This document shows, piece by piece, positions 19,597 to 33,990 of a DNA stretch of 64,000 bases. The position numbers were made by a program, and so were the translations under genes. This DNA comes from Candidatus Nomurabacteria bacterium (GTDB lineage: Bacteria; Patescibacteriota; Minisyncoccia; Phycocordibacterales; UBA9973): assembly GCA_021413905.1 (NCBI GenBank), contig JAIOPO010000005.1:2027-66026 (forward strand). The letters are read 5' to 3'. A model generated the notes under the pieces. It worked only from the letters and a program-made list of their open reading frames with translations, was not told the DNA's origin and made no database searches. Position 1 is the stretch's first letter. Every line of letters starts with the position of its first letter.

Positions 19597-21609
19597 ATGA
19601 AGACAGAAAACAAGCATTTGGAAGGAATTATATCAATAACATCAAAGGGCACAGGTTATGTGGCTATAAATGATGGTAAAAATCCTAGTCCAAAGAAAAA
19701 TGGTGAAGATCCGGAAATAGATTATAAACATCTTAATACTGCCCTGCACGGAGATACCGTGCAAATAATTCTCCACCCAAAAGGAAAAACAAGACAAACA
19801 GCCGAAGTTTCAAAAATAATCTCACGAGCCAAAAAAGGTTTTTCTGGCATTTTGGAAATGTCCGAGAATATGTATTTTTTAAAACCTGACGATGCAAAAA
19901 TGTATACAGATATTTTGATATCGGACAAAAATTTAAATGGAGCAAAAAATGGTGATAAGGTTTATGGAGAAATAATTTCATGGAAAGATTCTCGCAAAGC
20001 ACCCGAAGGAAATATAATAAAAGTTTTTGGACGCCCTGGAGACAATGATGTAGAAATGCATGCAATAGCACTGGAAAAAGGGTTCTCTGCCGAATTACCC
20101 GACAAGGTGGAACAAGAAGCAGATAATATAAAAAATTCTGGAATAAATGAAAAAGATTATGCAGACAGACGAGATTTTAGAAAAATTCTAACTTTCACTA
20201 TTGATCCTTCAGATGCAAAAGATTTTGATGATGCGATTTCGTTTCGTATTCTTCCCCCTCTCCTTAATAAGGAGAGGGGGCTAGGGGGTGAGGTGTATGA
20301 AATAGGTATACATATCGCTGATGTATCACACTATGTAAAAATCGGTTCTGCTCTAGATGAAGAAGCTAGAGAAAGAGGTACTTCGGTTTATTTAGTAGAT
20401 CGTACAATACCGATGTTGCCAGAAAATCTTTCAAATGATTTGTGTTCCCTTGTGCCAAATAAAGATCGTCTCACAATGAGTGCAGTATTCACAATTGATA
20501 AAAATGCAAAAGTCATAAATGAATGGTATGGGCGCACTGTGATACATTCTCAAAAAAGATTTACTTATGAAGAAGCAGAAATTTCTATAAATAAAGCAGA
20601 CGCGCCACTACACAAAGAACTTTTAATTTTGAATAATTTAGCAAAACAATTAACCAAAGAAAGATTTGCAAATGGCGCGATATCACTCGACCAAGAAGAA
20701 GTAAAATTCGTCTTGGATGAAAAAGGTGTGCCGATAAAAGTCATAAAAAAAGAACGCGGAGATTCAAACAGACTTATCGAAGAATTTATGCTTTTAGCAA
20801 ATAGAAAAGTAGCAGAAATAATGTCTCAACATGTAAATAAAAAAGGTGAAAAAATAAAAAACAATGAAAATGTATTTGTCTACAGAATTCACGACAAACC
20901 GACACCAGAAAAAACAGAAGACTTGGCATTTTTCTTGCGTAGTTTAGGATATAAAATTTCTCTAAAAGGCGGAGTGATTCCCTCTTATGAAATAAATAAA
21001 ATAATAAAAAGTTTGGAAAATAAAGCCGGCAAAGATGCAGTCCACAGAGCCATAATCCGCTCTATGGCAAAAGCAGTTTATTCAACTCAAAACATAGGAC
21101 ACTATGGTCTAGCATTTAAATATTACACTCATTTCACTTCCCCTATCAGACGTTATCCGGATATATTGGTACATCGCATGTTAATGGACTTTTTAAATAA
21201 TAAAAAAATTGGAAAAGATAAATTAAAAGAATTTGAAAATATTTCTCGCAAATCTTCTGAACAAGAAAAACGCGCTTCTGATGCAGAACGCGCTTCTATC
21301 AAATACAAACAAGTAGAATATATGTCTTCAAGAATCGGACAAACTTTTGAAGGTATTATCAGCGGTATTACCGAATGGGGCATGTATGTCGAAGAAATCG
21401 AAACAAAATGCGAAGGTATGATACGCGTCCGAGATCTGACAGATGATTTTTATATTTATAATGAAAAAAAATTAGAACTCTTGGGGCAAAAAAAGAAGAA
21501 AAGTTACAAGCTCGGTGATAAAGTAAAAATAAAAGTAAAAAATGTTGATTTAGAGAAAAAAACAATTGACTATATATTAAATGAACCTAAAACTTCATCC
21601 AAAAATTAA
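19597..21609 (+). CDS. rnr: Ribonuclease R / RNase II-family 3-prime to 5-prime exoribonuclease
   Basis: The RNB catalytic motifs are present (DPSDAKDFDDAIS, GIHIADVSHYV), together with N-terminal cold-shock-like domains and a C-terminal S1 domain with a K-rich tail. Confidence 0.85.
   Translation: MKTENKHLEGIISITSKGTGYVAINDGKNPSPKKNGEDPEIDYKHLNTALHGDTVQIILHPKGKTRQTAEVSKIISRAKKGFSGILEMSENMYFLKPDDAKMYTDILISDKNLNGAKNGDKVYGEIISWKDSRKAPEGNIIKVFGRPGDNDVEMHAIALEKGFSAELPDKVEQEADNIKNSGINEKDYADRRDFRKILTFTIDPSDAKDFDDAISFRILPPLLNKERGLGGEVYEIGIHIADVSHYVKIGSALDEEARERGTSVYLVDRTIPMLPENLSNDLCSLVPNKDRLTMSAVFTIDKNAKVINEWYGRTVIHSQKRFTYEEAEISINKADAPLHKELLILNNLAKQLTKERFANGAISLDQEEVKFVLDEKGVPIKVIKKERGDSNRLIEEFMLLANRKVAEIMSQHVNKKGEKIKNNENVFVYRIHDKPTPEKTEDLAFFLRSLGYKISLKGGVIPSYEINKIIKSLENKAGKDAVHRAIIRSMAKAVYSTQNIGHYGLAFKYYTHFTSPIRRYPDILVHRMLMDFLNNKKIGKDKLKEFENISRKSSEQEKRASDAERASIKYKQVEYMSSRIGQTFEGIISGITEWGMYVEEIETKCEGMIRVRDLTDDFYIYNEKKLELLGQKKKKSYKLGDKVKIKVKNVDLEKKTIDYILNEPKTSSKN
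20254..20280. repeat. 27-bp perfect GC-rich palindrome in-frame inside rnr
   Basis: CCCCCTCTCCTTA-A-TAAGGAGAGGGGG has 13-bp arms and a 1-nt spacer, followed by CTAGGGGGTGAGG. It encodes PPLLNKERGLGG, which lies between the two conserved RNB motifs, a segment that is usually shorter. Confidence 0.8.
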
Positions 21610-23461
21610 ATATTTGCTCTGGCTTTGCATTGCATTTAGCGTGGGTATTTCATCTGCTTTTTTTATCACAAAAGCGATAGGATATTATAAAATAGATAGC
21701 AAGACAGCATATCAAAATGTAGAAAATACAAACACTATAACAGAGGACAATACACCAAAGAATTTTTATTTTATAAAAGATCCAAATCAAAAACCAAAAA
21801 TCTCAGCAAATGCATATGTCGTCGGTGATTTGGATACAGGTGAAATAATTTTAGAAAAAAATGAAAATGACATCTTTCCTATTGCTTCCGTTTCCAAACT
21901 CATGACGAGTTTGATAGGCACCGAATTATCAAAAGATGAAGATATTGCACAAGTCACCAAAAATGCGCTCGCGACTTATGGCAAAAATGGTGAATTGCAT
22001 TTAGGAGAAAAAATAAAAGTAAATGAACTTTTTTATCCACTATTAATGGAATCTTCAAATGATGCAGCTGAAGTTATAGCCGAATATTTCAATCGTGATT
22101 CTTTTATTTCCAAAATGAATCTAGAAGCAAAAAAACTTGAAATGAATGCTACTTCTTTCGAAGACCCTAGCGGTCTATCACCAAACAATAAATCAACAGC
22201 ATTGGATTTGTTTAAACTTTCAGGATATTTAGTAAAAAATAAAGAAAATATTTTGGAAATAACCAAAAAGAAAAGTTACTTGAATGCGAAACACAATTGG
22301 TTCAGCACAAATCAATTCTTGCGAGAAGAAGGATATCTCGGAGGTAAAAGCGGATATACAGACTTGGCAAAACAAACAGGCATTTCCCTCTTCTCAATCC
22401 CTTTAGGAGAATCTGGAACCAGACATATTGCAATAACACTTCTGCAAACTCCAGACCGTTACAAAGATGCAAAAAGTCTTTTAACTTATTTGCGTAAAAA
22501 TGTTTATTATGGAGGTGAAGATGATGCAAATACTGCCTGGGTGAAAGAAAAAGAAGGACTGCCAGACATTGAAGAAAAAGATTTTGTCACACTTGCATTT
22601 GTCGGAGACATAATGCTCGACCGTGGAGTTAGAAGCTCTGTAAACAAAAATTTCAACGGAGATTATTCTGCTCTTTTTGACAATTTAGATATTTTGAAAA
22701 ATTATGATATTTCTTTTGCAAATCTTGAAGGCCCAGCATCAGACCAAGGAAAAGATATGCATAATCTATATTCCTTTGAAATGGATCCTTCTGCTATACC
22801 AGCTATTAAAGGTGCCGGTTTTGATATTTTGTCAGTCGCCAATAATCACGTCGGTGACTATGGACGAGATGCATACATTGATACTCTTGCAAGATTAAAA
22901 GAAAATGAAATTCTTTATGCGGGAGGAGGTAACAATTCCACAGAAGCCGAACAACCGACAATAATAGAAAAATACGGAATGAAAATCGGCTATTTAGCAT
23001 TTTCTGACAAAGGCCCGGACTGGATGCAAGCCACATCTGAAAAAGCCGGACTCCTTTTGGCTAACAATCCGCGTTTTGATGAGATAATTTCAAATGCTTC
23101 TAAACAAGTAGACTATCTCATAGTATCATTTCACTTCGGCGAAGAATACCAAACAAAGCATAACGATAGACAAGCGTATCTCGCACACAAAGCCATAGAT
23201 GCCGGCGCGAAAATAATCATCGGCGCACATCCGCACGTAGTGGAAGATACCGAAGTTTACAAAAAAGGATTCATCGCTTATTCCCTGGGCAACTTTATTT
23301 TTGACCAAAAGTTTTCAGAAAACACAATGCAAGGAATGTTGCTAGAACTCAAACTAAACCGTGACGGATCAATATCTGCAAAGAAAAATATAATAAAATT
23401 AGATTCTGTCTTTCAACCCCAAAAACCTATTTTAGGTAAAGAAGAAAAAGTGAAGTTTTAG
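21581..23461 (+). CDS. Fusion protein of an N-terminal D-alanyl-D-alanine carboxypeptidase (S11, PBP5-like) and a C-terminal CapA/PgsA-like metallophosphatase domain
   Basis: The N-terminal half carries SxxK (SVSKLM), SxN (ESSNDAAE) and KTG-like (GKSGYT) motifs after a signal/TM anchor. The C-terminal half carries CapA-type blocks (AFVGDIMLDRG, ANLEGP, SVANNHVGDYG, GAHPHVV). The start overlaps the rnr 3-prime end by 29 nt. Confidence 0.7.
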   Translation: MNLKLHPKIKYLLWLCIAFSVGISSAFFITKAIGYYKIDSKTAYQNVENTNTITEDNTPKNFYFIKDPNQKPKISANAYVVGDLDTGEIILEKNENDIFPIASVSKLMTSLIGTELSKDEDIAQVTKNALATYGKNGELHLGEKIKVNELFYPLLMESSNDAAEVIAEYFNRDSFISKMNLEAKKLEMNATSFEDPSGLSPNNKSTALDLFKLSGYLVKNKENILEITKKKSYLNAKHNWFSTNQFLREEGYLGGKSGYTDLAKQTGISLFSIPLGESGTRHIAITLLQTPDRYKDAKSLLTYLRKNVYYGGEDDANTAWVKEKEGLPDIEEKDFVTLAFVGDIMLDRGVRSSVNKNFNGDYSALFDNLDILKNYDISFANLEGPASDQGKDMHNLYSFEMDPSAIPAIKGAGFDILSVANNHVGDYGRDAYIDTLARLKENEILYAGGGNNSTEAEQPTIIEKYGMKIGYLAFSDKGPDWMQATSEKAGLLLANNPRFDEIISNASKQVDYLIVSFHFGEEYQTKHNDRQAYLAHKAIDAGAKIIIGAHPHVVEDTEVYKKGFIAYSLGNFIFDQKFSENTMQGMLLELKLNRDGSISAKKNIIKLDSVFQPQKPILGKEEKVKF

Positions 23462-23464
23462 AAA

Positions 23465-25777
23465 CTATTTCGCAATAGCGGCGGCTTCGTCGAATTTGAT
23501 AGATAAGAGTTTTGAACCACCGTCGGCGCCGATGGTGACACCGTAGAGGACGCCAGCGCGAGACATTGTCTCGCGATTGTGAGTGACGACGATGAGCTGT
23601 GAATGCTTTGAAAGCTTTTCCACCATATCACCATATCTGCGAGAATTCGCTTCATCTAGGGCTGCGTCTGTCTCATCTAGCACCAAGAATGGCGGAGGAT
23701 TAACTTGAGACATAGCAAAAAGAAGTGCGATAGATGTGAGTGAGCGCTCTCCTCCAGAAAGAGCGTGTAGTTCTTTTACTTTTTTATGGGGAAGCGAAAC
23801 ATTTATCTCAATACCATGCTCAAAAACGATATCCTCTCCATCTGACTCACCATCATCTTTTTTCTTTTTTTGTTCAGCCACGACAGACAAAAAAGCAGAA
23901 CCTCCACCAAACATAATTGAGAAAAATTCTTGAAATTCTGTATTGATTTTTTTCACACCTTCCTTGAATTCAAAATCTATTTTTTCTTTCAAATCCGCCA
24001 TCAACACACGCAAAGATTCTATACTTTTTGCCAAATCTTCTAATTCTTTTGCTAAAAAATTATCACGCTCACTGACTTCTTCATACTCTTTCATAACTTC
24101 CGCCCCGCCGATAAGCCCTGCGTCTTCGAGTTTTATTTTCAAGCGTTCTATTTTTCTTTTTTGTTCTTCTTGAATATATCTATCTATAGAACCTTGTATT
24201 TCAAAATCTTTATATGAAAGAATTTCATACCCCACCAAGACAGAACCTTCTTTAATTTCATTTTCAAAGTTTTCTATTTCACGTGAAAGATTTTCTGCTT
24301 TTACATTTATTACATTTAATAATGAAGAGAGTTCACTATGTCTCATTTTTAAATTGAATTTTTCTCTTTCACTTTCTCTTTTACTTTCAATTTCTTTATT
24401 GATTTCATTTTTTAAAATTTCCAAATTGGAAAGAATTTTATTTTCTTCAGTCTGGAGATTTTGCATTTCTATCAGAATTTCTTGTTGATTTTGTTTTAAA
24501 TTTTGCAATTGCTCCTCAAAAGCCAAATCCCGAGAGATTTCTGAATGATCTGACTGAACCAAAAATGAGGACAAATTAGAACTCGAAGAAGGTTCTCGTG
24601 ATTCGGCAACCCTAGCAAATCTATCTAAAATATCTTTTATTTTTTGTAAAATCGGCGCGACATTTTCCAATATATCCATATGCATCGCTTCCTCCAAATA
24701 TTCATTGGCTTCACGTAAAAAATCAGCAAATTCTTCTTGCTCTATGGAGATTTTTTTAATATTTTCTATTTTATTTTCTTGTTTTATGGCAACAGGTTTT
24801 TGTGCGCGATGCTCTTCCATTTCTATCATTCCCTCAATACGTCCAAGTTTACGATCCATCTCGCCTCGAATTGCGCGTATTTCAGAAATTTTCTTTTCCA
24901 AATTTCGCACTTCTTCTGTTTTTTTATTTTCTTCTAAAGAATTATTTTCTTCAGTATTTGAAATTTTTTCTGAAATAATAGAAAGTTCTGCAGAAATTTT
25001 ATTTTTCTGATTATTTAAATTATTTTTTTCTTGATCCAAATACACACTTTCTTTTTTTAAATATTCTTTATATAAACCCAGCAATTCGACTTTCATATCT
25101 TTCGCTTTTTCAAATTTCTCAACTTGTTTTTTCAAGAAATTCAAATGAGGAGCATTTTCTCTACGCAGTAAAACAACTTCTTTCATATTTGTATTTGTCC
25201 TGTCGAGCTTTCTTTCAGATTCTTTTATTTTGTATTGATAGACTTTCAAACCCAAAGCATCTTCCACCATCTCACGTCTGTCACGTGGAGATGCATTCAA
25301 TATTCTATCAGCTTCACCCTGAGAGATAATATGATGTCCAGAAGAACCAATATTCACAGAAGCCAAAAGATTTTGTATATCTTTGAGACGAACTTCTGTG
25401 CCATTCAAAATATATTTATTTAATCCATCAATATGCACTTCACGAGAAATGGAAATAATATCATAATTTAAATTTATATTCTCACCGCTCTCATTTGATA
25501 ATTTAAAAACTTTATCAGCATTATTAAAATAAATAGTCACCGACGCACGCGTGCCTTTTGGCAAGTTTTTAGAGCCTTTAAATACAAGGTCAGAGCCCGC
25601 TTTTCCTCGCATTGATTTCATTGATTGCTCACCCAATACAAAACGAAATGCCTCCACTACGTTAGACTTACCAGAGCCATTAGGCCCAACAACAGAAACC
25701 ACTGGACTCAAAAATTCCAAAGATGTTTTTTTGGCAAAAGATTTAAAACCGTTTATTTCTATAGAATTTAAACGCAT
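23465..25777 (-). CDS. smc: SMC-family chromosome segregation ATPase, short form with no obvious hinge domain
   Basis: The SMC N-terminus is MRLNSIEINGFKSFAKK...VGPNGSGKSNVVEAFRFVLGEQ. A long coiled coil follows, and the C-terminus has LSGGERSLTSIALLFA...LVLDETDAALD. At 770 aa it is far shorter than the roughly 1180 aa of bacterial SMC. Confidence 0.7.
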   Translation of the reverse strand: MRLNSIEINGFKSFAKKTSLEFLSPVVSVVGPNGSGKSNVVEAFRFVLGEQSMKSMRGKAGSDLVFKGSKNLPKGTRASVTIYFNNADKVFKLSNESGENINLNYDIISISREVHIDGLNKYILNGTEVRLKDIQNLLASVNIGSSGHHIISQGEADRILNASPRDRREMVEDALGLKVYQYKIKESERKLDRTNTNMKEVVLLRRENAPHLNFLKKQVEKFEKAKDMKVELLGLYKEYLKKESVYLDQEKNNLNNQKNKISAELSIISEKISNTEENNSLEENKKTEEVRNLEKKISEIRAIRGEMDRKLGRIEGMIEMEEHRAQKPVAIKQENKIENIKKISIEQEEFADFLREANEYLEEAMHMDILENVAPILQKIKDILDRFARVAESREPSSSSNLSSFLVQSDHSEISRDLAFEEQLQNLKQNQQEILIEMQNLQTEENKILSNLEILKNEINKEIESKRESEREKFNLKMRHSELSSLLNVINVKAENLSREIENFENEIKEGSVLVGYEILSYKDFEIQGSIDRYIQEEQKRKIERLKIKLEDAGLIGGAEVMKEYEEVSERDNFLAKELEDLAKSIESLRVLMADLKEKIDFEFKEGVKKINTEFQEFFSIMFGGGSAFLSVVAEQKKKKDDGESDGEDIVFEHGIEINVSLPHKKVKELHALSGGERSLTSIALLFAMSQVNPPPFLVLDETDAALDEANSRRYGDMVEKLSKHSQLIVVTHNRETMSRAGVLYGVTIGADGGSKLLSIKFDEAAAIAK

Positions 25778-25778
25778 A

Positions 25779-26474
25779 CTAATCTAACCAATGTTTTAAT
25801 TTTAATGCATTTTCTGCGGCTTTTTGTTCAGCCTCTTGTTTTGATTTTCCTTTTCCTTCAGCTATGAGTTCAGAACCAAAATAAATACCAACAGTAAAAT
25901 GTTTATCATGATCTGGACCTGTTTCATTTAATACTTTATATGCCGGAGTAAAACCGACAAATTCTTGAGATTTCTCTTGTACTAAACTTTTTGCATCACG
26001 CCATAATTTTTTAGAAACAATCTCATCGATATTTGGCAATAAAGTTTCTCGCACAAATTTTTCTGCAACATCATAACCTTGATCCATATAGACCGCTCCG
26101 ATATAAGCTTCATAAGTATTTGCCAAAATATATTGACGAGCTTTACCAGTGTCTTTCATTTCGCCTTTTGATAAAAGTAAGAAATCATTCATGTCTGTCT
26201 TCGAAGCAATTTCAGAAATAATAATTGCATTTACGAGTGCAGAACGAAGAGCCGTCAATTCACCTTCGGCATAATTTGGATATTTTTTATATAAAAAATC
26301 TGTAACTATTAACTCTAAAACGGCATCACCCAAAAATTCCAAACGCTCATTGTGCGCCAAACCGACATTCGGATTTTCATTTATATAAGAACGATGAATA
26401 AAAGATTGTTTCAATAAATCTTTATTTTTAAAAACTATATTTGTCTTTTTTTCGAACTCAGAAAAATTTATCAT
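25779..26474 (-). CDS. rnc: Ribonuclease III
   Basis: The RNase III signature is ERLEFLGDAVLELIV, with a C-terminal dsRBD. Confidence 0.9.
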   Translation of the reverse strand: MINFSEFEKKTNIVFKNKDLLKQSFIHRSYINENPNVGLAHNERLEFLGDAVLELIVTDFLYKKYPNYAEGELTALRSALVNAIIISEIASKTDMNDFLLLSKGEMKDTGKARQYILANTYEAYIGAVYMDQGYDVAEKFVRETLLPNIDEIVSKKLWRDAKSLVQEKSQEFVGFTPAYKVLNETGPDHDKHFTVGIYFGSELIAEGKGKSKQEAEQKAAENALKLKHWLD

Positions 26475-26490: not shown

Positions 26491-27429
26491 TTATTTTTTA
26501 CTAATAATCTCTATCGCTTTTGATATCAAAGGAATAATATCATTATAAATGCGAAGCTCTGGAATCTCGGAAAGTTGAAACCATTTTGCGCCGTCGAGTC
26601 CTCCTGATTCTTCGAGCACTAATTCTCTATACTCACTTTCTGCTAAGAAGTATGTAACCTTTTTCAAAATTTTACCTTGCTCTGGATGTTTCGCCACATA
26701 TTGATTTTCTCCGAGTTTCTCTTGAATATTAACATCCAAACCTATTTCTTCTTTTATTTCTCTTTTTGTAGCATCTTCTTCATTTTCGCCTTCCTCTATG
26801 CCACCTTTGGCAATAGTCCAATAACCAAAAACATCATGAACCATTGCAAAATAAATATTATTGTCTTTTTTAGCATACACCAATGCTCCACCTTTTTTTT
26901 CTACTGGAAGTTTGGAGATATCTACAGGTTCTTCTATTTTTTTCTTTTTGCTAATCTCATCTTTGCCTGGCTCACCCATTTCTTTGTAAACTGCCCCTAA
27001 AACACCATTGATAAATTTGCTGGAATTTTCCCCACCGAAAGTTTTTGCCAATTCGATAGCTTCATTGATAGCTACTTTTGGAGGGACTTGATTTCTGTCA
27101 CCAAACAAAAGCTCGGTCAAACCTATACGTAAAATATTTCTATCTACAACAGAAATTTTATCAATAGGCCAATCAGGCGCAGCTTTTTCTATTATCTCAT
27201 CGATAACTTCTCTTTTTTTTAGAACTTGTTCCAATAAAAAAGCTACAAAAACATCATCTTCTAAACCAGGAGCGAATTCTTTCAAATTACGAGCCATAGC
27301 TTCTTTTACATTAACATCTTTTCCATTTAGGAAATCCCACTCGAAAAGTGTTTGTAAAACTATTGATCTAGAAAGGTGCCTGTTTGCCATAATTAATGAA
27401 CTAAATGAATATAATTTAACAATATTCAA
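26491..27429 (-). CDS. nusB: NusB-like antitermination domain fused to a C-terminal Nudix hydrolase domain
   Basis: The N-terminal roughly 150 aa carry NusB motifs (LQTLFEWDF, DRNILRIGLTELLF, VAINEAIELAKTFGGENSSKFINGVLG). The C-terminal roughly 150 aa carry a complete Nudix box, GGIEEGENEEDATKREIKEEIGL. Confidence 0.75.
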   Translation of the reverse strand: MNIVKLYSFSSLIMANRHLSRSIVLQTLFEWDFLNGKDVNVKEAMARNLKEFAPGLEDDVFVAFLLEQVLKKREVIDEIIEKAAPDWPIDKISVVDRNILRIGLTELLFGDRNQVPPKVAINEAIELAKTFGGENSSKFINGVLGAVYKEMGEPGKDEISKKKKIEEPVDISKLPVEKKGGALVYAKKDNNIYFAMVHDVFGYWTIAKGGIEEGENEEDATKREIKEEIGLDVNIQEKLGENQYVAKHPEQGKILKKVTYFLAESEYRELVLEESGGLDGAKWFQLSEIPELRIYNDIIPLISKAIEIISKK

Positions 27430-27477
27430 TATGTTAAAAACATAAAGAATTGCAATTAATTTTTAAAATGCTTTTGA

Positions 27478-27696
27478 TTAAGCTTTTTTAGCTTTTGCTT
27501 TCTTGATTTTCTTTTCAGCTTTTTTAACCAAATCCAATACTTTCATACCACGATAAAAACCACAAGCTTTACAAACTGTGTGTTTTTTCTTTAGTTCACT
27601 GCAATTTGCGCATTTCGCAAAACTCGTGCTTTTTAAAGCATGATGTGAACGTCGGTTCGCTGTATGGGATTTTGTATGTCTCATTCGTACTACCAT
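27478..27696 (-). CDS. rpmF: 50S ribosomal protein L32 with a lysine-rich C-terminal tail (the ORF extends to 27738; the likely start is MVVRMRHTK at 27696)
   Basis: MVVRMRHTKSHTANRRSHHAL...C..C...HTVCKACGFY is the L32 zinc-ribbon pattern. The tail is KKAEKKIKKAKAKKA. Confidence 0.75.
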   Translation of the reverse strand: MVVRMRHTKSHTANRRSHHALKSTSFAKCANCSELKKKHTVCKACGFYRGMKVLDLVKKAEKKIKKAKAKKA

Positions 27697-27772: not shown

Positions 27773-29017
27773 ATGGAAGAAAATAAAGATAAAGATCATA
27801 AAAAAATAGGCCGAGAAATGGAACTTTTCACTTTTAGTGATTCTGTAGGTAAAGGTTTACCTATTTGGTTACCAAAAGGCGCTACCGTGCGCAGAGAACT
27901 TGAACGTTTTATAGTGGACGAAGAAATTCGCCGTGGATATCTACACGTACGTACTCCTGATATTGCCAAGCTTGATTTATATAAAAAATCCGGACATTAT
28001 CCACATTACCAAGATTCCATGTATGCTCCTATTGTTATCGATGACGAAGAATTTATGCTTCGCCCAATGACTTGTCCACATCATTTTGAATTGTATTTAC
28101 ACAAACCTCATAGCTATCGCGAGCTACCTATGCGCATAGCCGAACTCGCACAACTCTACAGATATGAACAGTCCGGAGAACTTATGGGCCTACAAAGAGT
28201 TCGTACTTTTTGTTTAGCAGATGCACATATAATATGTAAAGATGAAACACAAGCTATAGAAGAAATCGGCAATGCTTTAGACCTGATTGAATACGTCACT
28301 TCAGTTTTTAATTTAAAACTTGATGTTGATTACAGATATCGTCTATCATTAGGAGACAGAGATAATCACGAAAAATATTATAAAAATGATGAAGCTTGGG
28401 AAAAAGGCGAAGACTTGATGCGCAAACTTATGCAAAAAAGAGGTTCTAAATTTGAAGAAGCCAAAGATGAAGCCGCTTTTTACGGACCAAAAATAGATAT
28501 TCAAATGAAAAATGTAAACGGTAAAGAAGATACTGCATTCACAGTACAATATGATTTTTGTATGCCAAAAAGATTTGAATTAAAATATATGGGCGAAGAC
28601 GGTAATGAACATCAAGCTTTTGTTGTTCACCGTTCATCTATAGGCGCAATTGAAAGAATAATGGCATTCCTAATAGAAAAATACGCCGGTGCATTCCCTC
28701 TTTGGCTTTCCCCTACTCAAGTCGCAATTGTTCCTGTGCGAGAAAACCACGAAGAAGAAGCAGAAAAGATAAATCAATTGTTAAAAAATAATTCAATCAG
28801 AGTGCAAATTTTACACTCAGGAGATTCTATTGGCAAAAGAATCAATCACGCAAAAGCTGAAAAAATACCTTATGTAATAGTTCTAGGAGACAAAGAAATG
28901 TCTGCAAACACTCTCACAGTGGAAAAACGCGACGGAACAAAAATAGAAAATATTTCACCTGTTGATTTTCTAAAAGAATTGCAAGAGAAAATAAATTCTA
29001 AATCTTTGGAGTTATAA
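27773..29017 (+). CDS. thrS: Threonyl-tRNA synthetase, catalytic core plus anticodon-binding domain only (no TGS or editing domains)
   Basis: DHKKIGREMELFTF...GLPIWLPKGA and class II motifs are present. The 414-aa length is well below the roughly 640 aa of canonical ThrRS, and only 34 bp of upstream intergenic sequence is available. Confidence 0.85.
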   Translation: MEENKDKDHKKIGREMELFTFSDSVGKGLPIWLPKGATVRRELERFIVDEEIRRGYLHVRTPDIAKLDLYKKSGHYPHYQDSMYAPIVIDDEEFMLRPMTCPHHFELYLHKPHSYRELPMRIAELAQLYRYEQSGELMGLQRVRTFCLADAHIICKDETQAIEEIGNALDLIEYVTSVFNLKLDVDYRYRLSLGDRDNHEKYYKNDEAWEKGEDLMRKLMQKRGSKFEEAKDEAAFYGPKIDIQMKNVNGKEDTAFTVQYDFCMPKRFELKYMGEDGNEHQAFVVHRSSIGAIERIMAFLIEKYAGAFPLWLSPTQVAIVPVRENHEEEAEKINQLLKNNSIRVQILHSGDSIGKRINHAKAEKIPYVIVLGDKEMSANTLTVEKRDGTKIENISPVDFLKELQEKINSKSLEL

Positions 29018-33003: not shown

Positions 33004-33990
33004 TTATTGTGAAACATTGGTCGGTGCGACCATGTGTTTCAAAACATTATAACATTTATTTTTATTTTTAATAGCTTCATTTTGACATAATTCCGGTGAA
33101 TTATAGACCAATTCATTATGAAAATTATAATAACGAATAAGCCCCTCAAAACAAGCATCAACATTTTTAAATACAAAACAATAATTTTCCCCTTCTTTTT
33201 CTTGTGTAATATGATGCTTCATAAAACCAACTCCGGAACCAACAATGCAACTTACTCTCAAGGAAGAAGAAGTTATGGATTCACATTTTTTAATATTATC
33301 CAAAGATTCCGTAGACATTTTATACCTTGGAGCATAAAAATAACAATTATTATTATAAGGAGTTTTAAAAGTGGAACAAAAATCAAATGCATCTTCAAAA
33401 TGCGTAATTACTTTATTTATACCAGTATTCTCATCATCAAAAATATGCATAAAAACACCATCGTAACAATTTGACCTTTGAGATTTTTCTTTATAAGAAT
33501 CACAAAAACTTAAAGATTTTTTAACATCGCCGTTCAAAGCAAACATGAGACCATGTCCAACTCCATGGAAACAACGATTTAAATTAGCGGGTAAACATAC
33601 TGAATTTAATTCATTCAATAATTGATCTTCTTTCAGAAAACCAAACTTTTCTTCTATAACTCCATGAATATATCCTGCCCCACAAACATCATCTTCATAA
33701 GACATCGCGCCAGAGAAACCATATTTCAAATAAGCATGATGTCCTATTTCATGAGCTACACCATGACAAGAATTTGCAAGACTTTCATCTGAAATAATTT
33801 CTTCTCTCAATATTGCAAGCACTTGACTGGGTGTCTTTTTGTCTAACATTTGCATTAACTCTTCGCGAGAATAATGTGGCAAAGTTTTTTGTTCTTTTTT
33901 AATATTTAAATAAAAATAAATAGAGAAAATAAAAAACAATACAGCAAAAATAACCAGTGTTTTTCGAATAAGACCTGGTGATATTTTCAT
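33004..33990 (-). CDS. Membrane-anchored Cys/His-repeat protein containing an HExxH motif, encoded between pheS and pheT
   Basis: An N-terminal TM segment is followed by about six repeats of C-x(9-12)-C-x-G-x-x-H (CHGVAHEIGHH, CGAGYIHGV, CFHGVGHGLM, CYDGVFMHI...). HEIGH resembles a zinc-metallopeptidase motif, but the family is not recognised. Confidence 0.45.
   Translation of the reverse strand: MKISPGLIRKTLVIFAVLFFIFSIYFYLNIKKEQKTLPHYSREELMQMLDKKTPSQVLAILREEIISDESLANSCHGVAHEIGHHAYLKYGFSGAMSYEDDVCGAGYIHGVIEEKFGFLKEDQLLNELNSVCLPANLNRCFHGVGHGLMFALNGDVKKSLSFCDSYKEKSQRSNCYDGVFMHIFDDENTGINKVITHFEDAFDFCSTFKTPYNNNCYFYAPRYKMSTESLDNIKKCESITSSSLRVSCIVGSGVGFMKHHITQEKEGENYCFVFKNVDACFEGLIRYYNFHNELVYNSPELCQNEAIKNKNKCYNVLKHMVAPTNVSQ

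What the first reader, a model, noticed from the sequence alone, without database searches (positions are those of the whole stretch)
26491..27429. NusB fused to a Nudix hydrolase
A single 312-aa ORF has a complete NusB antitermination domain (N-terminal roughly 150 aa) and a complete Nudix domain with a textbook Nudix box (GGIEEGENEEDATKREIKEEIGL). A Nudix RNA pyrophosphohydrolase (RppH-like) or nucleotide-sanitising activity tethered to the RNA-binding antitermination factor would be an unusual architecture. It sits upstream of rnc, so the region encodes several RNA-processing functions together.
Basis: seen in the sequence. Interest (0 to 1): 0.55.

Follow-up and report, generated by a model that had tools for sequence, protein, structure and literature searches.

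The report
NusB–Nudix fusion protein of Patescibacteria
The gene is real: in this ultra-small (Patescibacteria) bacterium and hundreds of relatives, the transcription antitermination factor NusB carries a built-in Ap4A-hydrolase-like Nudix domain. I found no study of this arrangement; it may tie ribosomal-RNA synthesis to RNA 5'-end processing or nucleotide signals.

Summary
Observation confirmed. A single minus-strand ORF (26491..27390, 299 aa from the ATG that homologues use; the 312-aa reading starts at an upstream TTG) encodes a complete NusB domain, a roughly 23-aa flexible linker and a complete Nudix domain with a canonical Nudix box.

It is not a frameshift artefact. 78 of 80 species-representative genomes carry it as one full-length ORF, always in the order rpmF–nusB::nudix–rnc(–smc). 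At least 593 GTDB genomes carry its signature motif. It occurs across Parcubacteria- and Microgenomates-type Patescibacteria.

The Nudix half is not RppH, MutT or NudC by curated thresholds. Its closest relatives are Ap4A/Ap6A hydrolases (Aquifex aq_158, Thermus Ndx1, human NUDT2).

The catalytic residues are canonical here and in 56% of 261 fusion proteins. They were lost many times in the rest. The adenine/phosphate pocket residues stay 92–96% conserved even there, and a sister lineage probably keeps the Nudix fold with no box at all.

Best reading: a genuine NusB with a tethered nucleotide-polyphosphate-binding module that is probably still hydrolytic here. It would act on ApnA or on RNA 5' ends. 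The substrate is unproven. New variant of a known kind; moderate interest.

The parts
26491..27390 (-). nusB::nudix coding sequence (299 aa plus stop); start at the ATG used by all homologues
26971..27390 (-). NusB domain (aa 1-140), all-helical
26902..26970 (-). Flexible linker (aa 141-163): part of the GEPGK motif, a KKKK run, and EPVDISKLP
   Evidence: pLDDT below 50 for residues 142-152. Linker length is 8-50 aa across the family, and GEPxK is present in 166 of 261 fusions.
26494..26901 (-). Nudix domain (aa 164-299), Ap4A/Ap6A-hydrolase type
26737..26805 (-). Nudix box GGIEEGENEEDATKREIKEEIGL (aa 196-218): G196, E202, R210, E211, E214, E215, G217
27408..27437 (-). Promoter-like TTAACA-18-TATATT in the rpmF-nusB spacer, ending 18 nt before the ATG (a consensus match only)
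   Evidence: the number of such sites in the region is not above chance
27478..27696 (-). rpmF (ribosomal protein L32), the conserved upstream neighbour
   Evidence: Pfam PF01783; upstream of the fusion in 77 of 80 related loci
25779..26474 (-). rnc (RNase III), 16 bp downstream on the same strand, the conserved downstream neighbour
   Evidence: Pfam Ribonuclease_3 plus dsrm; directly downstream in 80 of 80 related loci and in distant members
23465..25777 (-). smc (770 aa); its start overlaps the end of rnc; last gene of the conserved block
   Evidence: Pfam SMC_N; synteny

Best explanation
This is the organism's genuine NusB, built as a two-domain protein.

Shown: the N-terminal 140 residues are an orthodox NusB. 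They retain the residues that E. coli NusB uses for BoxA RNA (F122, here F126) and for the NusE/S10 interface (Y18, here F16).

Shown: a flexible linker of about 23 residues tethers a complete Nudix domain of the Ap4A/Ap6A-hydrolase type. This domain has every canonical catalytic residue. It also has the Lys/Tyr/Tyr pocket that in Ap4A hydrolases holds the P1 phosphate and sandwiches the adenine ring.

Inferred: NusB, together with S10, binds a BoxA-like element on nascent (ribosomal) RNA at the polymerase. That places the Nudix module next to the transcript. There it binds an adenine-nucleotide polyphosphate and, in this organism, hydrolyses it with Mg2+. The ligand would be either the 5'-triphosphate or Np(n)N-capped end of the leader RNA (the way RppH and NUDT2 work) or free Ap(n)A.

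Inferred: this would couple antitermination to 5'-end maturation or decay of the leader that RNase III, encoded by the next gene, cuts off.

Shown for relatives: many have lost the catalytic glutamates but keep the pocket. Binding, not only cleavage, is therefore part of the selected function.
For: - One uninterrupted ORF.
- Both domains pass curated thresholds.
- AF2 pLDDT is 91.9, with two well-folded domains and a disordered linker.
- The family profile's best PDB matches are Ap4A hydrolase 3i7u (E=2e-20), CT771, Ndx1 and human NUDT2.
- Pocket equivalences come from the NUDT2 alignment and PMC4734340: K195=Lys42, Y247=Tyr82, Y282=Phe128.
- Catalytic equivalences: E211 corresponds to human E58 and E215 to Ndx1 E50. 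Both were mutated to trap substrate or product complexes (PDB titles; alignments).
- F126 is invariant and position 16 is F or Y in about 98% of 261 fusions. The functional roles of EcF122 and EcY18 are from PMC3177189.
- The fusion is conserved: 78 of 80 species genomes have a single full-length ORF, the rpmF-fusion-rnc synteny is universal, and at least 593 genomes carry the signature. It is also present in Microgenomates, Pacebacteria, Komeilibacteria and Giovannonibacteria.
- Purifying selection on the Nudix half equals that on NusB (dN/dS about 0.14 each). For the five catalytic residues it is about 0.07 and for the six pocket residues about 0.003.
- Ap4A-hydrolase-type Nudix enzymes act on RNA 5' ends: NUDT2 on pppRNA and caps, RppH on Np4N caps and ppp/ppRNA (PMC9283932).
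Against: - There is no biochemical or genetic data for any member. No paper in the searchable library mentions the fusion.
- The substrate is unknown, and RNA 5' end versus free ApnA cannot be separated here.
- 114 of 261 fusion proteins lack at least one canonical catalytic residue, with at least 39 changes of state by parsimony.
- In the close clade the Nudix box evolves about twice as fast as the rest of the domain (dN/dS 0.29 against 0.14; identity 65% against 79%). That is atypical for an enzyme whose hydrolysis is essential.
- Interdomain geometry is not predicted (pTM 0.63).
- The window holds no rRNA operon, and an E. coli-type BoxA is not enriched. The RNA target in this organism is therefore not identified.
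- Only 64 kb of the genome could be checked for other Nudix or NusB genes. None were found.
Confidence: 0.55

Rival explanations
1. The Nudix module is in essence a non-catalytic ligand sensor or scaffold, even in this protein. It would bind a nucleotide (Ap(n)A or another alarmone) or an RNA 5' end, or dock a partner in the antitermination complex. That would modulate NusB function in the way the Nudix domain does in NrtR, AraR or CFIm25, or in the way the enzyme-fold protein SuhB stabilises NusB/E in the E. coli rRNA antitermination complex. On this reading the intact box here is a leftover.
For: - The catalytic set is lost in 44% of 261 fusions and in 38 of 48 clusters at 50% divergence.
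- In box-degenerate members the pocket residues remain 92-96% conserved while E211 is kept in only 28%.
- A sister lineage (P0240 type) sits in the same rpmF-X-rnc position. It keeps a Nudix-like fold with no box and a K/E-rich helical insert (hhalign E=1.7e-4; Foldseek best non-NusB hit is Ap4A hydrolase 3i7u, E=7.8e-4; synteny).
- Precedents: CFIm25 binds but does not hydrolyse Ap4A (PMC2425470). The NrtR and AraR Nudix domains are among the structural matches. SuhB is required to integrate NusB/E into the complex (PMC6614801).
Against: - This protein has all canonical residues.
- In its own clade those five residues are under purifying selection (dN/dS about 0.07).
- Another large clade keeps them in 72 of 86 members.
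- Long-term retention of a metal-binding motif is hard to explain without catalysis.
Confidence: 0.27
2. The fusion has no functional coupling. On this reading a housekeeping Nudix enzyme (an Ap4A clearer or nucleotide-pool sanitiser) was joined to NusB by gene fusion in a compacting genome, and each domain works independently.
For: Patescibacterial genomes are small and gene-dense. In this window rnc starts 16 bp after the fusion and smc overlaps rnc. The linker is flexible and variable, 8-50 aa. No interdomain interface is predicted (pTM 0.63).
Against: - The fusion is kept across very divergent lineages, down to about 33% identity, in fixed synteny.
- The domain is retained on NusB even after catalytic residues, or probably the whole box, are lost. 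An independent housekeeping enzyme that lost activity would be expected to decay or be deleted.
- MutT-type models score far below their cut-offs.
Confidence: 0.15
3. Artefact: two adjacent genes (nusB and a Nudix gene) were merged by a sequencing or assembly error that removed a stop codon or a frameshift.
For: One database contig (L082) shows separate NusB (133 aa) and Nudix (141 aa) gene calls. One of the 80 loci (L066) has the match spread over two ORFs.
Against: - 78 of 80 independent species genomes have one full-length ORF.
- All 120 of the closest protein clusters are full-length fusions.
- In L082 the 'split' is a TAA in place of the Tyr135 codon, with the linker still conserved in the same frame.
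- Where NusB is unfused in relatives, rnc follows directly and there is no separate Nudix gene (L083).
Confidence: 0.01

Closest known systems
NusB (E. coli, Aquifex aeolicus, Thermotoga maritima): transcription antitermination factor that binds BoxA RNA together with NusE/S10
   Different: It carries about 160 extra C-terminal residues, a linker plus a Nudix domain. The gene lies between rpmF and rnc.
Nudix Ap4A/Ap6A hydrolases (Aquifex aq_158 3i7u, Thermus Ndx1 1vc8, Chlamydia CT771, human NUDT2 3u53, C. elegans 1ktg)
   Same: These are the best sequence-profile and structure matches. They share the W-T-x-P-K-G motif before the box, the P1-phosphate Lys, the adenine-stacking Tyr/Tyr(Phe) pair, and a canonical Nudix box.
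   Different: The known enzymes are free-standing, single-domain proteins. Here the domain is the C-terminal half of NusB, about 24-31% identical to them. In 44% of family members the catalytic residues are not canonical. Activity is untested.
RppH (RNA pyrophosphohydrolase; E. coli NudH, Bdellovibrio BdRppH, Bacillus YtkD)
   Same: It is a Nudix enzyme of the wider ApnA-hydrolase kind that acts on RNA 5' ends and Np4N caps (PMC9283932). It serves as the model for the proposed mechanism.
RsmB/Fmu/Sun (16S rRNA m5C967 methyltransferase)
   Different: There the NusB-like domain is a paralogue and the enzyme is a methyltransferase. Here the domain is the orthologous NusB itself and the partner is a Nudix domain.
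Non-catalytic Nudix modules in nucleic-acid regulators: NrtR and AraR (Nudix plus wHTH transcription factors), CFIm25/NUDT21 (binds RNA and Ap4A without hydrolysis), mitoribosomal mL46
   Same: A Nudix fold is attached to, or used in, a nucleic-acid-binding regulator. Catalytic residues are lost while the ligand pocket is kept, as in the box-degenerate relatives.
   Different: The window's protein keeps the full catalytic box. Its partner domain is an RNA-binding antitermination factor, not a DNA-binding wHTH domain.
SuhB in the E. coli rRNA antitermination complex
   Same: An enzyme-fold protein recruited to the NusB/E-BoxA complex and required for stable integration of NusB/E (PMC6614801). 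It is a possible functional analogue of a tethered accessory domain.
   Different: It has an unrelated fold (inositol monophosphatase) and is a separate polypeptide. No evidence here shows that the Nudix domain contacts NusA, RNA polymerase or RNA.

Membership tests
NusB (TIGR01951 / PF01029) | Sequence match above the curated family threshold | tested here: met
   TIGR01951 (equivalog) 124.3 bits against a cut-off of 88.35; PF01029 115.2 bits against 23.1
NusB (TIGR01951 / PF01029) | All-helical NusB fold | tested here: met
NusB (TIGR01951 / PF01029) | Residues used for BoxA RNA (EcF122) and for the NusE interface (EcY18) | tested here: met
   F126 aligns with EcF122 and is invariant in 261 fusions. 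F16 aligns with EcY18 and is F or Y in about 98%. Roles are from PMC3177189.
NusB (TIGR01951 / PF01029) | Binds NusE/S10 and BoxA RNA; supports antitermination | not testable with these tools
   Needs binding and transcription assays. The window holds no rRNA leader.
Nudix hydrolase superfamily (PF00293) | Sequence match above the Pfam gathering score | tested here: met
   51.8 bits against 21.1, E=1.1e-13
Nudix hydrolase superfamily (PF00293) | Nudix box GX5EX7REUXEEXGU with all metal-binding and catalytic residues | tested here: met
   G196, E202, R210, E211, I212, E214, E215, G217, L218. Across the family only 147 of 261 members keep E202/R210/E211/E214/E215.
Nudix hydrolase superfamily (PF00293) | Alpha/beta/alpha Nudix fold | tested here: met
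Ap4A/Ap6A (dinucleoside polyphosphate) hydrolase subgroup of Nudix | Closest relatives by sequence profile and by structure are ApnA hydrolases | tested here: met
Ap4A/Ap6A (dinucleoside polyphosphate) hydrolase subgroup of Nudix | P1-phosphate Lys and adenine-stacking aromatic pair (human Lys42, Tyr82, Phe128) | tested here: met
   K195, Y247 and Y282 align to these residues (roles from PMC4734340). They are 92-100% conserved in the family.
Ap4A/Ap6A (dinucleoside polyphosphate) hydrolase subgroup of Nudix | Hydrolyses Ap4A/Ap6A | not testable with these tools
   Needs an enzyme assay
RppH (RNA pyrophosphohydrolase) | Match above the curated NCBIfam cut-offs for RppH equivalogs | tested here: not met
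   Best hit NF001936 36.5 bits against 118. Others 20-26 bits against 116-259. YtkD-type TIGR02705 17.9 against 154.4.
MutT (8-oxo-dGTP diphosphatase) | Match above curated cut-offs | tested here: not met
   TIGR00586 21.4 bits against 97.9; NF008044 23.7 against 148
NudC (NAD-cap decapping / NADH pyrophosphatase) | Match above the curated cut-off | tested here: not met
   NF001299 27.5 bits against 158
Non-catalytic Nudix regulators (NrtR / CFIm25 type) | Loss of the catalytic glutamates of the Nudix box | tested here: not met
   Not met in this protein, whose box is intact. Met in 114 of 261 relatives and, probably, in the box-less sister lineage.

The most novel reading that the evidence does not exclude
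On this reading the tethered Nudix domain reads the 5' end or an alarmone. It would recognise the adenine-polyphosphate moiety of an Np(n)N-capped or triphosphorylated nascent leader RNA, or free Ap(n)A made under stress. It would thereby gate NusB/S10-BoxA antitermination and RNase III processing of rRNA in Patescibacteria. Hydrolysis would serve only as an optional 'reset' that many lineages have dropped. That would be a direct, protein-encoded link between dinucleoside-polyphosphate signalling or non-canonical RNA caps and ribosomal RNA synthesis.
Probability: 0.2. Interest if true: 0.75.

Novelty: new variant of a known kind. Interest (0 to 1): 0.5.

Why it matters
NusB is a core, near-universal factor of bacterial rRNA transcription. 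It is known as a small, single-domain protein.

Here, and across large parts of the Patescibacteria (CPR), its normal form carries an Ap4A-hydrolase-type Nudix domain. These organisms have minimal genomes and few recognisable regulators. Databases name the protein simply 'NusB', and I found no paper that mentions the fusion.

A stable fusion is strong 'Rosetta-stone' evidence that the two activities work together. That would connect antitermination and rRNA processing (rnc is the next gene) with either RNA 5'-end chemistry (triphosphate or Np4N caps) or Ap(n)A signalling. The physiological roles of both are still debated.

The family also offers a natural series, from fully catalytic, to pocket-only, to probably box-less Nudix modules on the same scaffold. 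Such a series is useful for separating binding from hydrolysis experimentally.

Tried and rejected
1. Frameshift or merged-gene artefact: rejected.
2. Stand-alone Nudix hits among the cluster representatives as evidence of an ancestral split. The one checked (P0209/L082) is an in-frame TAA in a fused gene; the others were not examined.
3. RppH, MutT or NudC identity: all are below curated cut-offs.
4. My first conclusion was 'the Nudix box is degenerate family-wide, so the domain is a pseudo-enzyme'. A second homologue search from a distant member showed clades with 84% intact boxes. dN/dS also showed constraint on the catalytic residues in the window's own clade. I therefore softened this to 'repeated loss'.
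5. A search for an E. coli-type BoxA in the window found 4 matches against 5 expected. Rfam found only 4 tRNAs and no rRNA.
6. Literature searches for NusB+Nudix, NusB+CPR and Nudix+Patescibacteria found nothing relevant.
7. The search for related loci with the 30-sequence Nudix alignment failed because no stretch was conserved enough. It was repeated with 8 closer sequences.
8. The AFDB fold library was not available.
9. Taxon names for the most distant fusions were not obtainable from cluster look-up.
10. The presence of other Nudix, RppH, SuhB or second nusB genes elsewhere in the genome could not be checked. Only the 64-kb window is held, and it contains none.

Full report
**The observation**

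The window (32.7% G+C) has an uninterrupted ORF at 26491..27429 on the minus strand. From the first possible start (TTG, 27429) it is 312 aa. Every homologue starts at MANRHLSRS, which is the ATG at 27390. That gives 299 aa, identical to a database protein named 'transcription antitermination factor NusB [Candidatus Nomurabacteria bacterium]'. A promoter-like TTAACA-18-TATATT overlaps the 13 extra codons; it is a consensus match only.

Pfam finds NusB (E=3.7e-33) and NUDIX (E=1.1e-13), both well above their gathering scores. The NCBIfam equivalog model for NusB is passed: 124.3 bits against a cut-off of 88.35. The quoted Nudix box is encoded at 26737..26805(-) and matches GX5EX7REUXEEXGU at every defined position.

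**Is the fusion real?**

The closest 120 protein clusters (78-100% identity) are all about 300 aa and all carry both Pfam domains. An exhaustive HMMER search of 1.84 billion cluster representatives finds full-length fusions down to about 33% identity.

Of the 80 loci kept:
- 78 have one ORF covering residues 1 to about 298;
- one is cut by a contig end;
- one is in two ORFs.

All 80 have rnc directly downstream. 77 have rpmF upstream, and the other three lack the room for it. Most continue into smc. Very distant members keep the same rpmF–fusion–rnc order.

One contig had separate NusB and Nudix gene calls (L082). It turns out to have a TAA in place of the Tyr135 codon, with the linker still conserved in the same frame. 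That is a nonsense change or a sequencing error, not an ancestral split. A relative with a plain 144-aa NusB has rnc immediately after it, in the same rpmF–nusB–rnc order.

Source names place the fusion in Nomurabacteria, Paceibacterota, Parcubacteria, Wolfebacteria, Giovannonibacteria and Komeilibacteria. They also place it in Microgenomates and Pacebacteria. It is therefore broad within the Patescibacteria (lineage).

**The NusB half**

From the HMMER alignments to E. coli NusB:
- F126 corresponds to EcF122, which is needed for cellular and lambda-N antitermination.
- F16 corresponds to EcY18, which is buried in the NusB–NusE interface; Y18D is the nusB5 allele.
- N122 sits at the EcD118 position.

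The roles are from PMC3177189. Across 261 fusion proteins F126 is invariant and position 16 is F or Y in about 98%. No second NusB is present in the 64-kb window. I conclude that this is the orthologous, functional NusB. Binding to S10 and BoxA remains inferred.

**The Nudix half**

It is not RppH, MutT, NudC or YtkD by curated thresholds; all of these score 4- to 10-fold below their cut-offs.

By single sequence, by family profile and by structure, its nearest solved relatives are dinucleoside-polyphosphate hydrolases:

| Structure | Profile E | Structural match |
|---|---|---|
| Aquifex Ap4A hydrolase 3i7u | 2e-20 | TM 0.87 |
| Human NUDT2 | 2e-12 | Foldseek TMt 0.71 |

Next come mycobacterial MutT1/Rv2985 ApnA hydrolases and then Dcp2.

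The alignment to NUDT2, read with PMC4734340, equates K195 with Lys42 (P1 phosphate). It equates Y247 with Tyr82 (P1 phosphate and adenine stacking) and Y282 with Phe128 (the other face of the adenine). E211 is the counterpart of human E58, and E215 is the counterpart of Ndx1 E50. Crystallographers mutated both residues to trap complexes (PDB titles; alignments). This protein therefore has a complete ApnA-hydrolase-type active site.

**Family-wide behaviour of the catalytic motif**

| Set of fusion proteins | Canonical E202/R210/E211/E214/E215 |
|---|---|
| 120 closest relatives | 67 |
| 57 divergent cluster representatives nearest the query | 9 |
| Clade collected from the distant member P0237 | 72 of 86 |
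| Pooled | 147 of 261 (56%) |

Typical replacements among the closest relatives are RE→KR or RI, and EE→KE, NE, QE, AE or DE. At 50% divergence the 261 proteins fall into 48 clusters: 5 all intact, 5 mixed and 38 with none intact. At least 39 changes of state are required by parsimony.

In the 114 box-degenerate proteins the pocket residues stay highly conserved:

| Residue | Conserved in box-degenerate members |
|---|---|
| W191 | 96% |
| T192 | 92% |
| K195 | 96% |
| Y247 | 92% |
| W270 | 94% |
| Y282 | 93% |
| E211 | 28% |
| E214 | 51% |
| R210 | 58% |

Codon analysis of 79 coding sequences from the window's clade used the 28 least saturated pairs. dS is about 0.9-1.4, so the values are rough:

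| Region | dN/dS |
|---|---|
| NusB | about 0.14 |
| Linker | about 0.14 |
| Nudix outside the box | about 0.14 |
| Nudix box | 0.29 |
| Five catalytic residues | 0.07 |
| Six pocket residues | 0.003 |

Three points follow:
- The Nudix domain as a whole is as constrained as NusB.
- Catalysis is still selected in much of the window's clade and is probably functional here.
- Catalysis has been given up repeatedly while the ligand pocket has not.

A sister lineage (P0240, P0253, P0261, P0245) sits in the same rpmF–X–rnc position. It has NusB followed by about 200 residues whose profile aligns to the Nudix half (hhalign E=1.7e-4, probability 49%). Its low-confidence model (pLDDT 64.5) has the Nudix order of strands and helices and finds Ap4A hydrolase 3i7u as the best non-NusB match (E=7.8e-4). 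It has a K/E-rich helical insert where the box should be. This is suggestive rather than conclusive evidence for a purely non-catalytic version.

**Mechanism**

Shown: an orthologous NusB is tethered to a complete ApnA-hydrolase-type Nudix domain, conserved together, in a ribosome-biogenesis neighbourhood. The neighbours are rpmF upstream and rnc downstream. An RNB-family exoribonuclease lies about 5 kb away, and YceD sits beside rpmF in a relative.

Inferred: NusB/S10 bound to a BoxA-like element on nascent rRNA keeps the Nudix module near the transcript. There it binds an adenine-nucleotide polyphosphate and, in this organism, cleaves it.

Two candidate substrates cannot be separated with the present data:
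- The 5' end of the leader RNA, either triphosphate or Np(n)N cap. Enzymes of this kind do act on RNA ends: NUDT2 on pppRNA and caps, RppH on Np4N caps and ppp/ppRNA (PMC9283932).
- Free Ap(n)A.

RsmB/Fmu is a precedent for a NusB-type domain that delivers an enzyme to rRNA. Several precedents exist for the pocket-only relatives: CFIm25 (binds Ap4A without hydrolysis; PMC2425470), NrtR and AraR. SuhB is another such precedent; it is an enzyme-fold protein needed to integrate NusB/E into the E. coli complex (PMC6614801).

I put about 0.55 on the 'tethered, still catalytic nucleotide/5'-end module' reading. I put about 0.27 on an essentially non-catalytic sensor or scaffold, about 0.15 on a fusion without functional coupling, and about 0.01 on artefact.

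**Comparison with what is known, and novelty**

As to membership, the protein is a NusB (defining features met). It is also a Nudix-superfamily protein of the ApnA-hydrolase kind (sequence, fold and pocket met; activity untested). It should not be filed as RppH, MutT or NudC.

The combination of the two domains was not mentioned in any paper of the searchable library. Source databases label these proteins simply as NusB. I rate it a new variant of a known kind and of moderate interest (0.5). It is widespread, conserved and unstudied, and it gives a testable link between antitermination, RNase III processing and ApnA or RNA-cap chemistry. The parts themselves are familiar, and the function of the tethered domain is still inferred.

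Noticed in passing
window 23465..25777 (-): The SMC protein is only 770 aa. The SMC_N head halves span residues 3-752, so the coiled coil must be much shorter than in typical SMC proteins of about 1,180 aa (that length is from my own knowledge). A distant relative has a 700-aa version in the same position (L088).
   Followed up: no
window 27773..29017 (+): A class II aminoacyl-tRNA synthetase of 414 aa holds only the catalytic core (tRNA-synt_2b) and the HGTP anticodon-binding domain. I called it thrS-like by eye; no ThrRS-specific model was run. It lacks the N-terminal TGS and editing domains. It is conserved divergently upstream of rpmF in most related loci.
   Followed up: partly
window 21581..23461 (+): A single 626-aa ORF combines a D-Ala-D-Ala carboxypeptidase domain (Peptidase_S11, residues 70-266) with a PGA_cap capsule-synthesis domain (residues 337-576).
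   Followed up: no
window 19597..21609 (+): An RNB-family exoribonuclease (RNase R/II type, with CSD and S1 domains) lies about 5 kb from the nusB::nudix–rnc pair. This adds to the RNA-processing content of the region.
   Followed up: no
window 33004..33990 (-): A 328-aa ORF sits between pheT and pheS and has no Pfam match at E<=1e-5.
   Followed up: no
L082 940..1040 (GCA_013565675.1 contig JACCDV010735530.1): The fusion gene is interrupted by an in-frame TAA where relatives have the Tyr135 codon. The linker downstream is still conserved in the same frame. It is either a recent nonsense mutation or a sequencing error, and gene callers report two genes.
   Followed up: yes
L085 4001..5017 and L086 1058..2074 (proteins P0240, P0253, P0261, P0245): In a sister lineage the gene between rpmF and rnc encodes NusB plus about 200 aa. 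That extension looks like a Nudix fold with no Nudix box and a K/E-rich helical insert of roughly 60-90 aa (hhalign E=1.7e-4; Foldseek best non-NusB hit is Ap4A hydrolase 3i7u, E=7.8e-4; model pLDDT only 64.5).
   Followed up: partly
window 26956..26970 (-), aa 139-143; family-wide: The linker motif GEPGK, followed by a Lys-rich run, is present in 166 of 261 fusions and in 25 of 109 shorter NusB-type proteins. Some of those shorter proteins end in long Lys-rich tails instead of a Nudix domain (P0169, P0187). It may be a short functional motif in its own right.
   Followed up: partly
loci L003, L005, L007, L010, L012 and others: Many genome records are titled 'uncultured Candidatus Saccharibacteria bacterium'. 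They carry fusion proteins with Nudix halves 59-79% identical to this Nomurabacteria-type protein, in identical synteny. The titles look like generic labels rather than true Saccharibacteria.
   Followed up: no
window 27391..27477 (-): The 87-bp rpmF–nusB spacer has a promoter-like TTAACA-18-TATATT but no obvious Shine-Dalgarno sequence before the ATG. No terminator-like site separates rpmF, nusB::nudix, rnc and smc; the single terminator-like hit lies inside rnc.
   Followed up: partly
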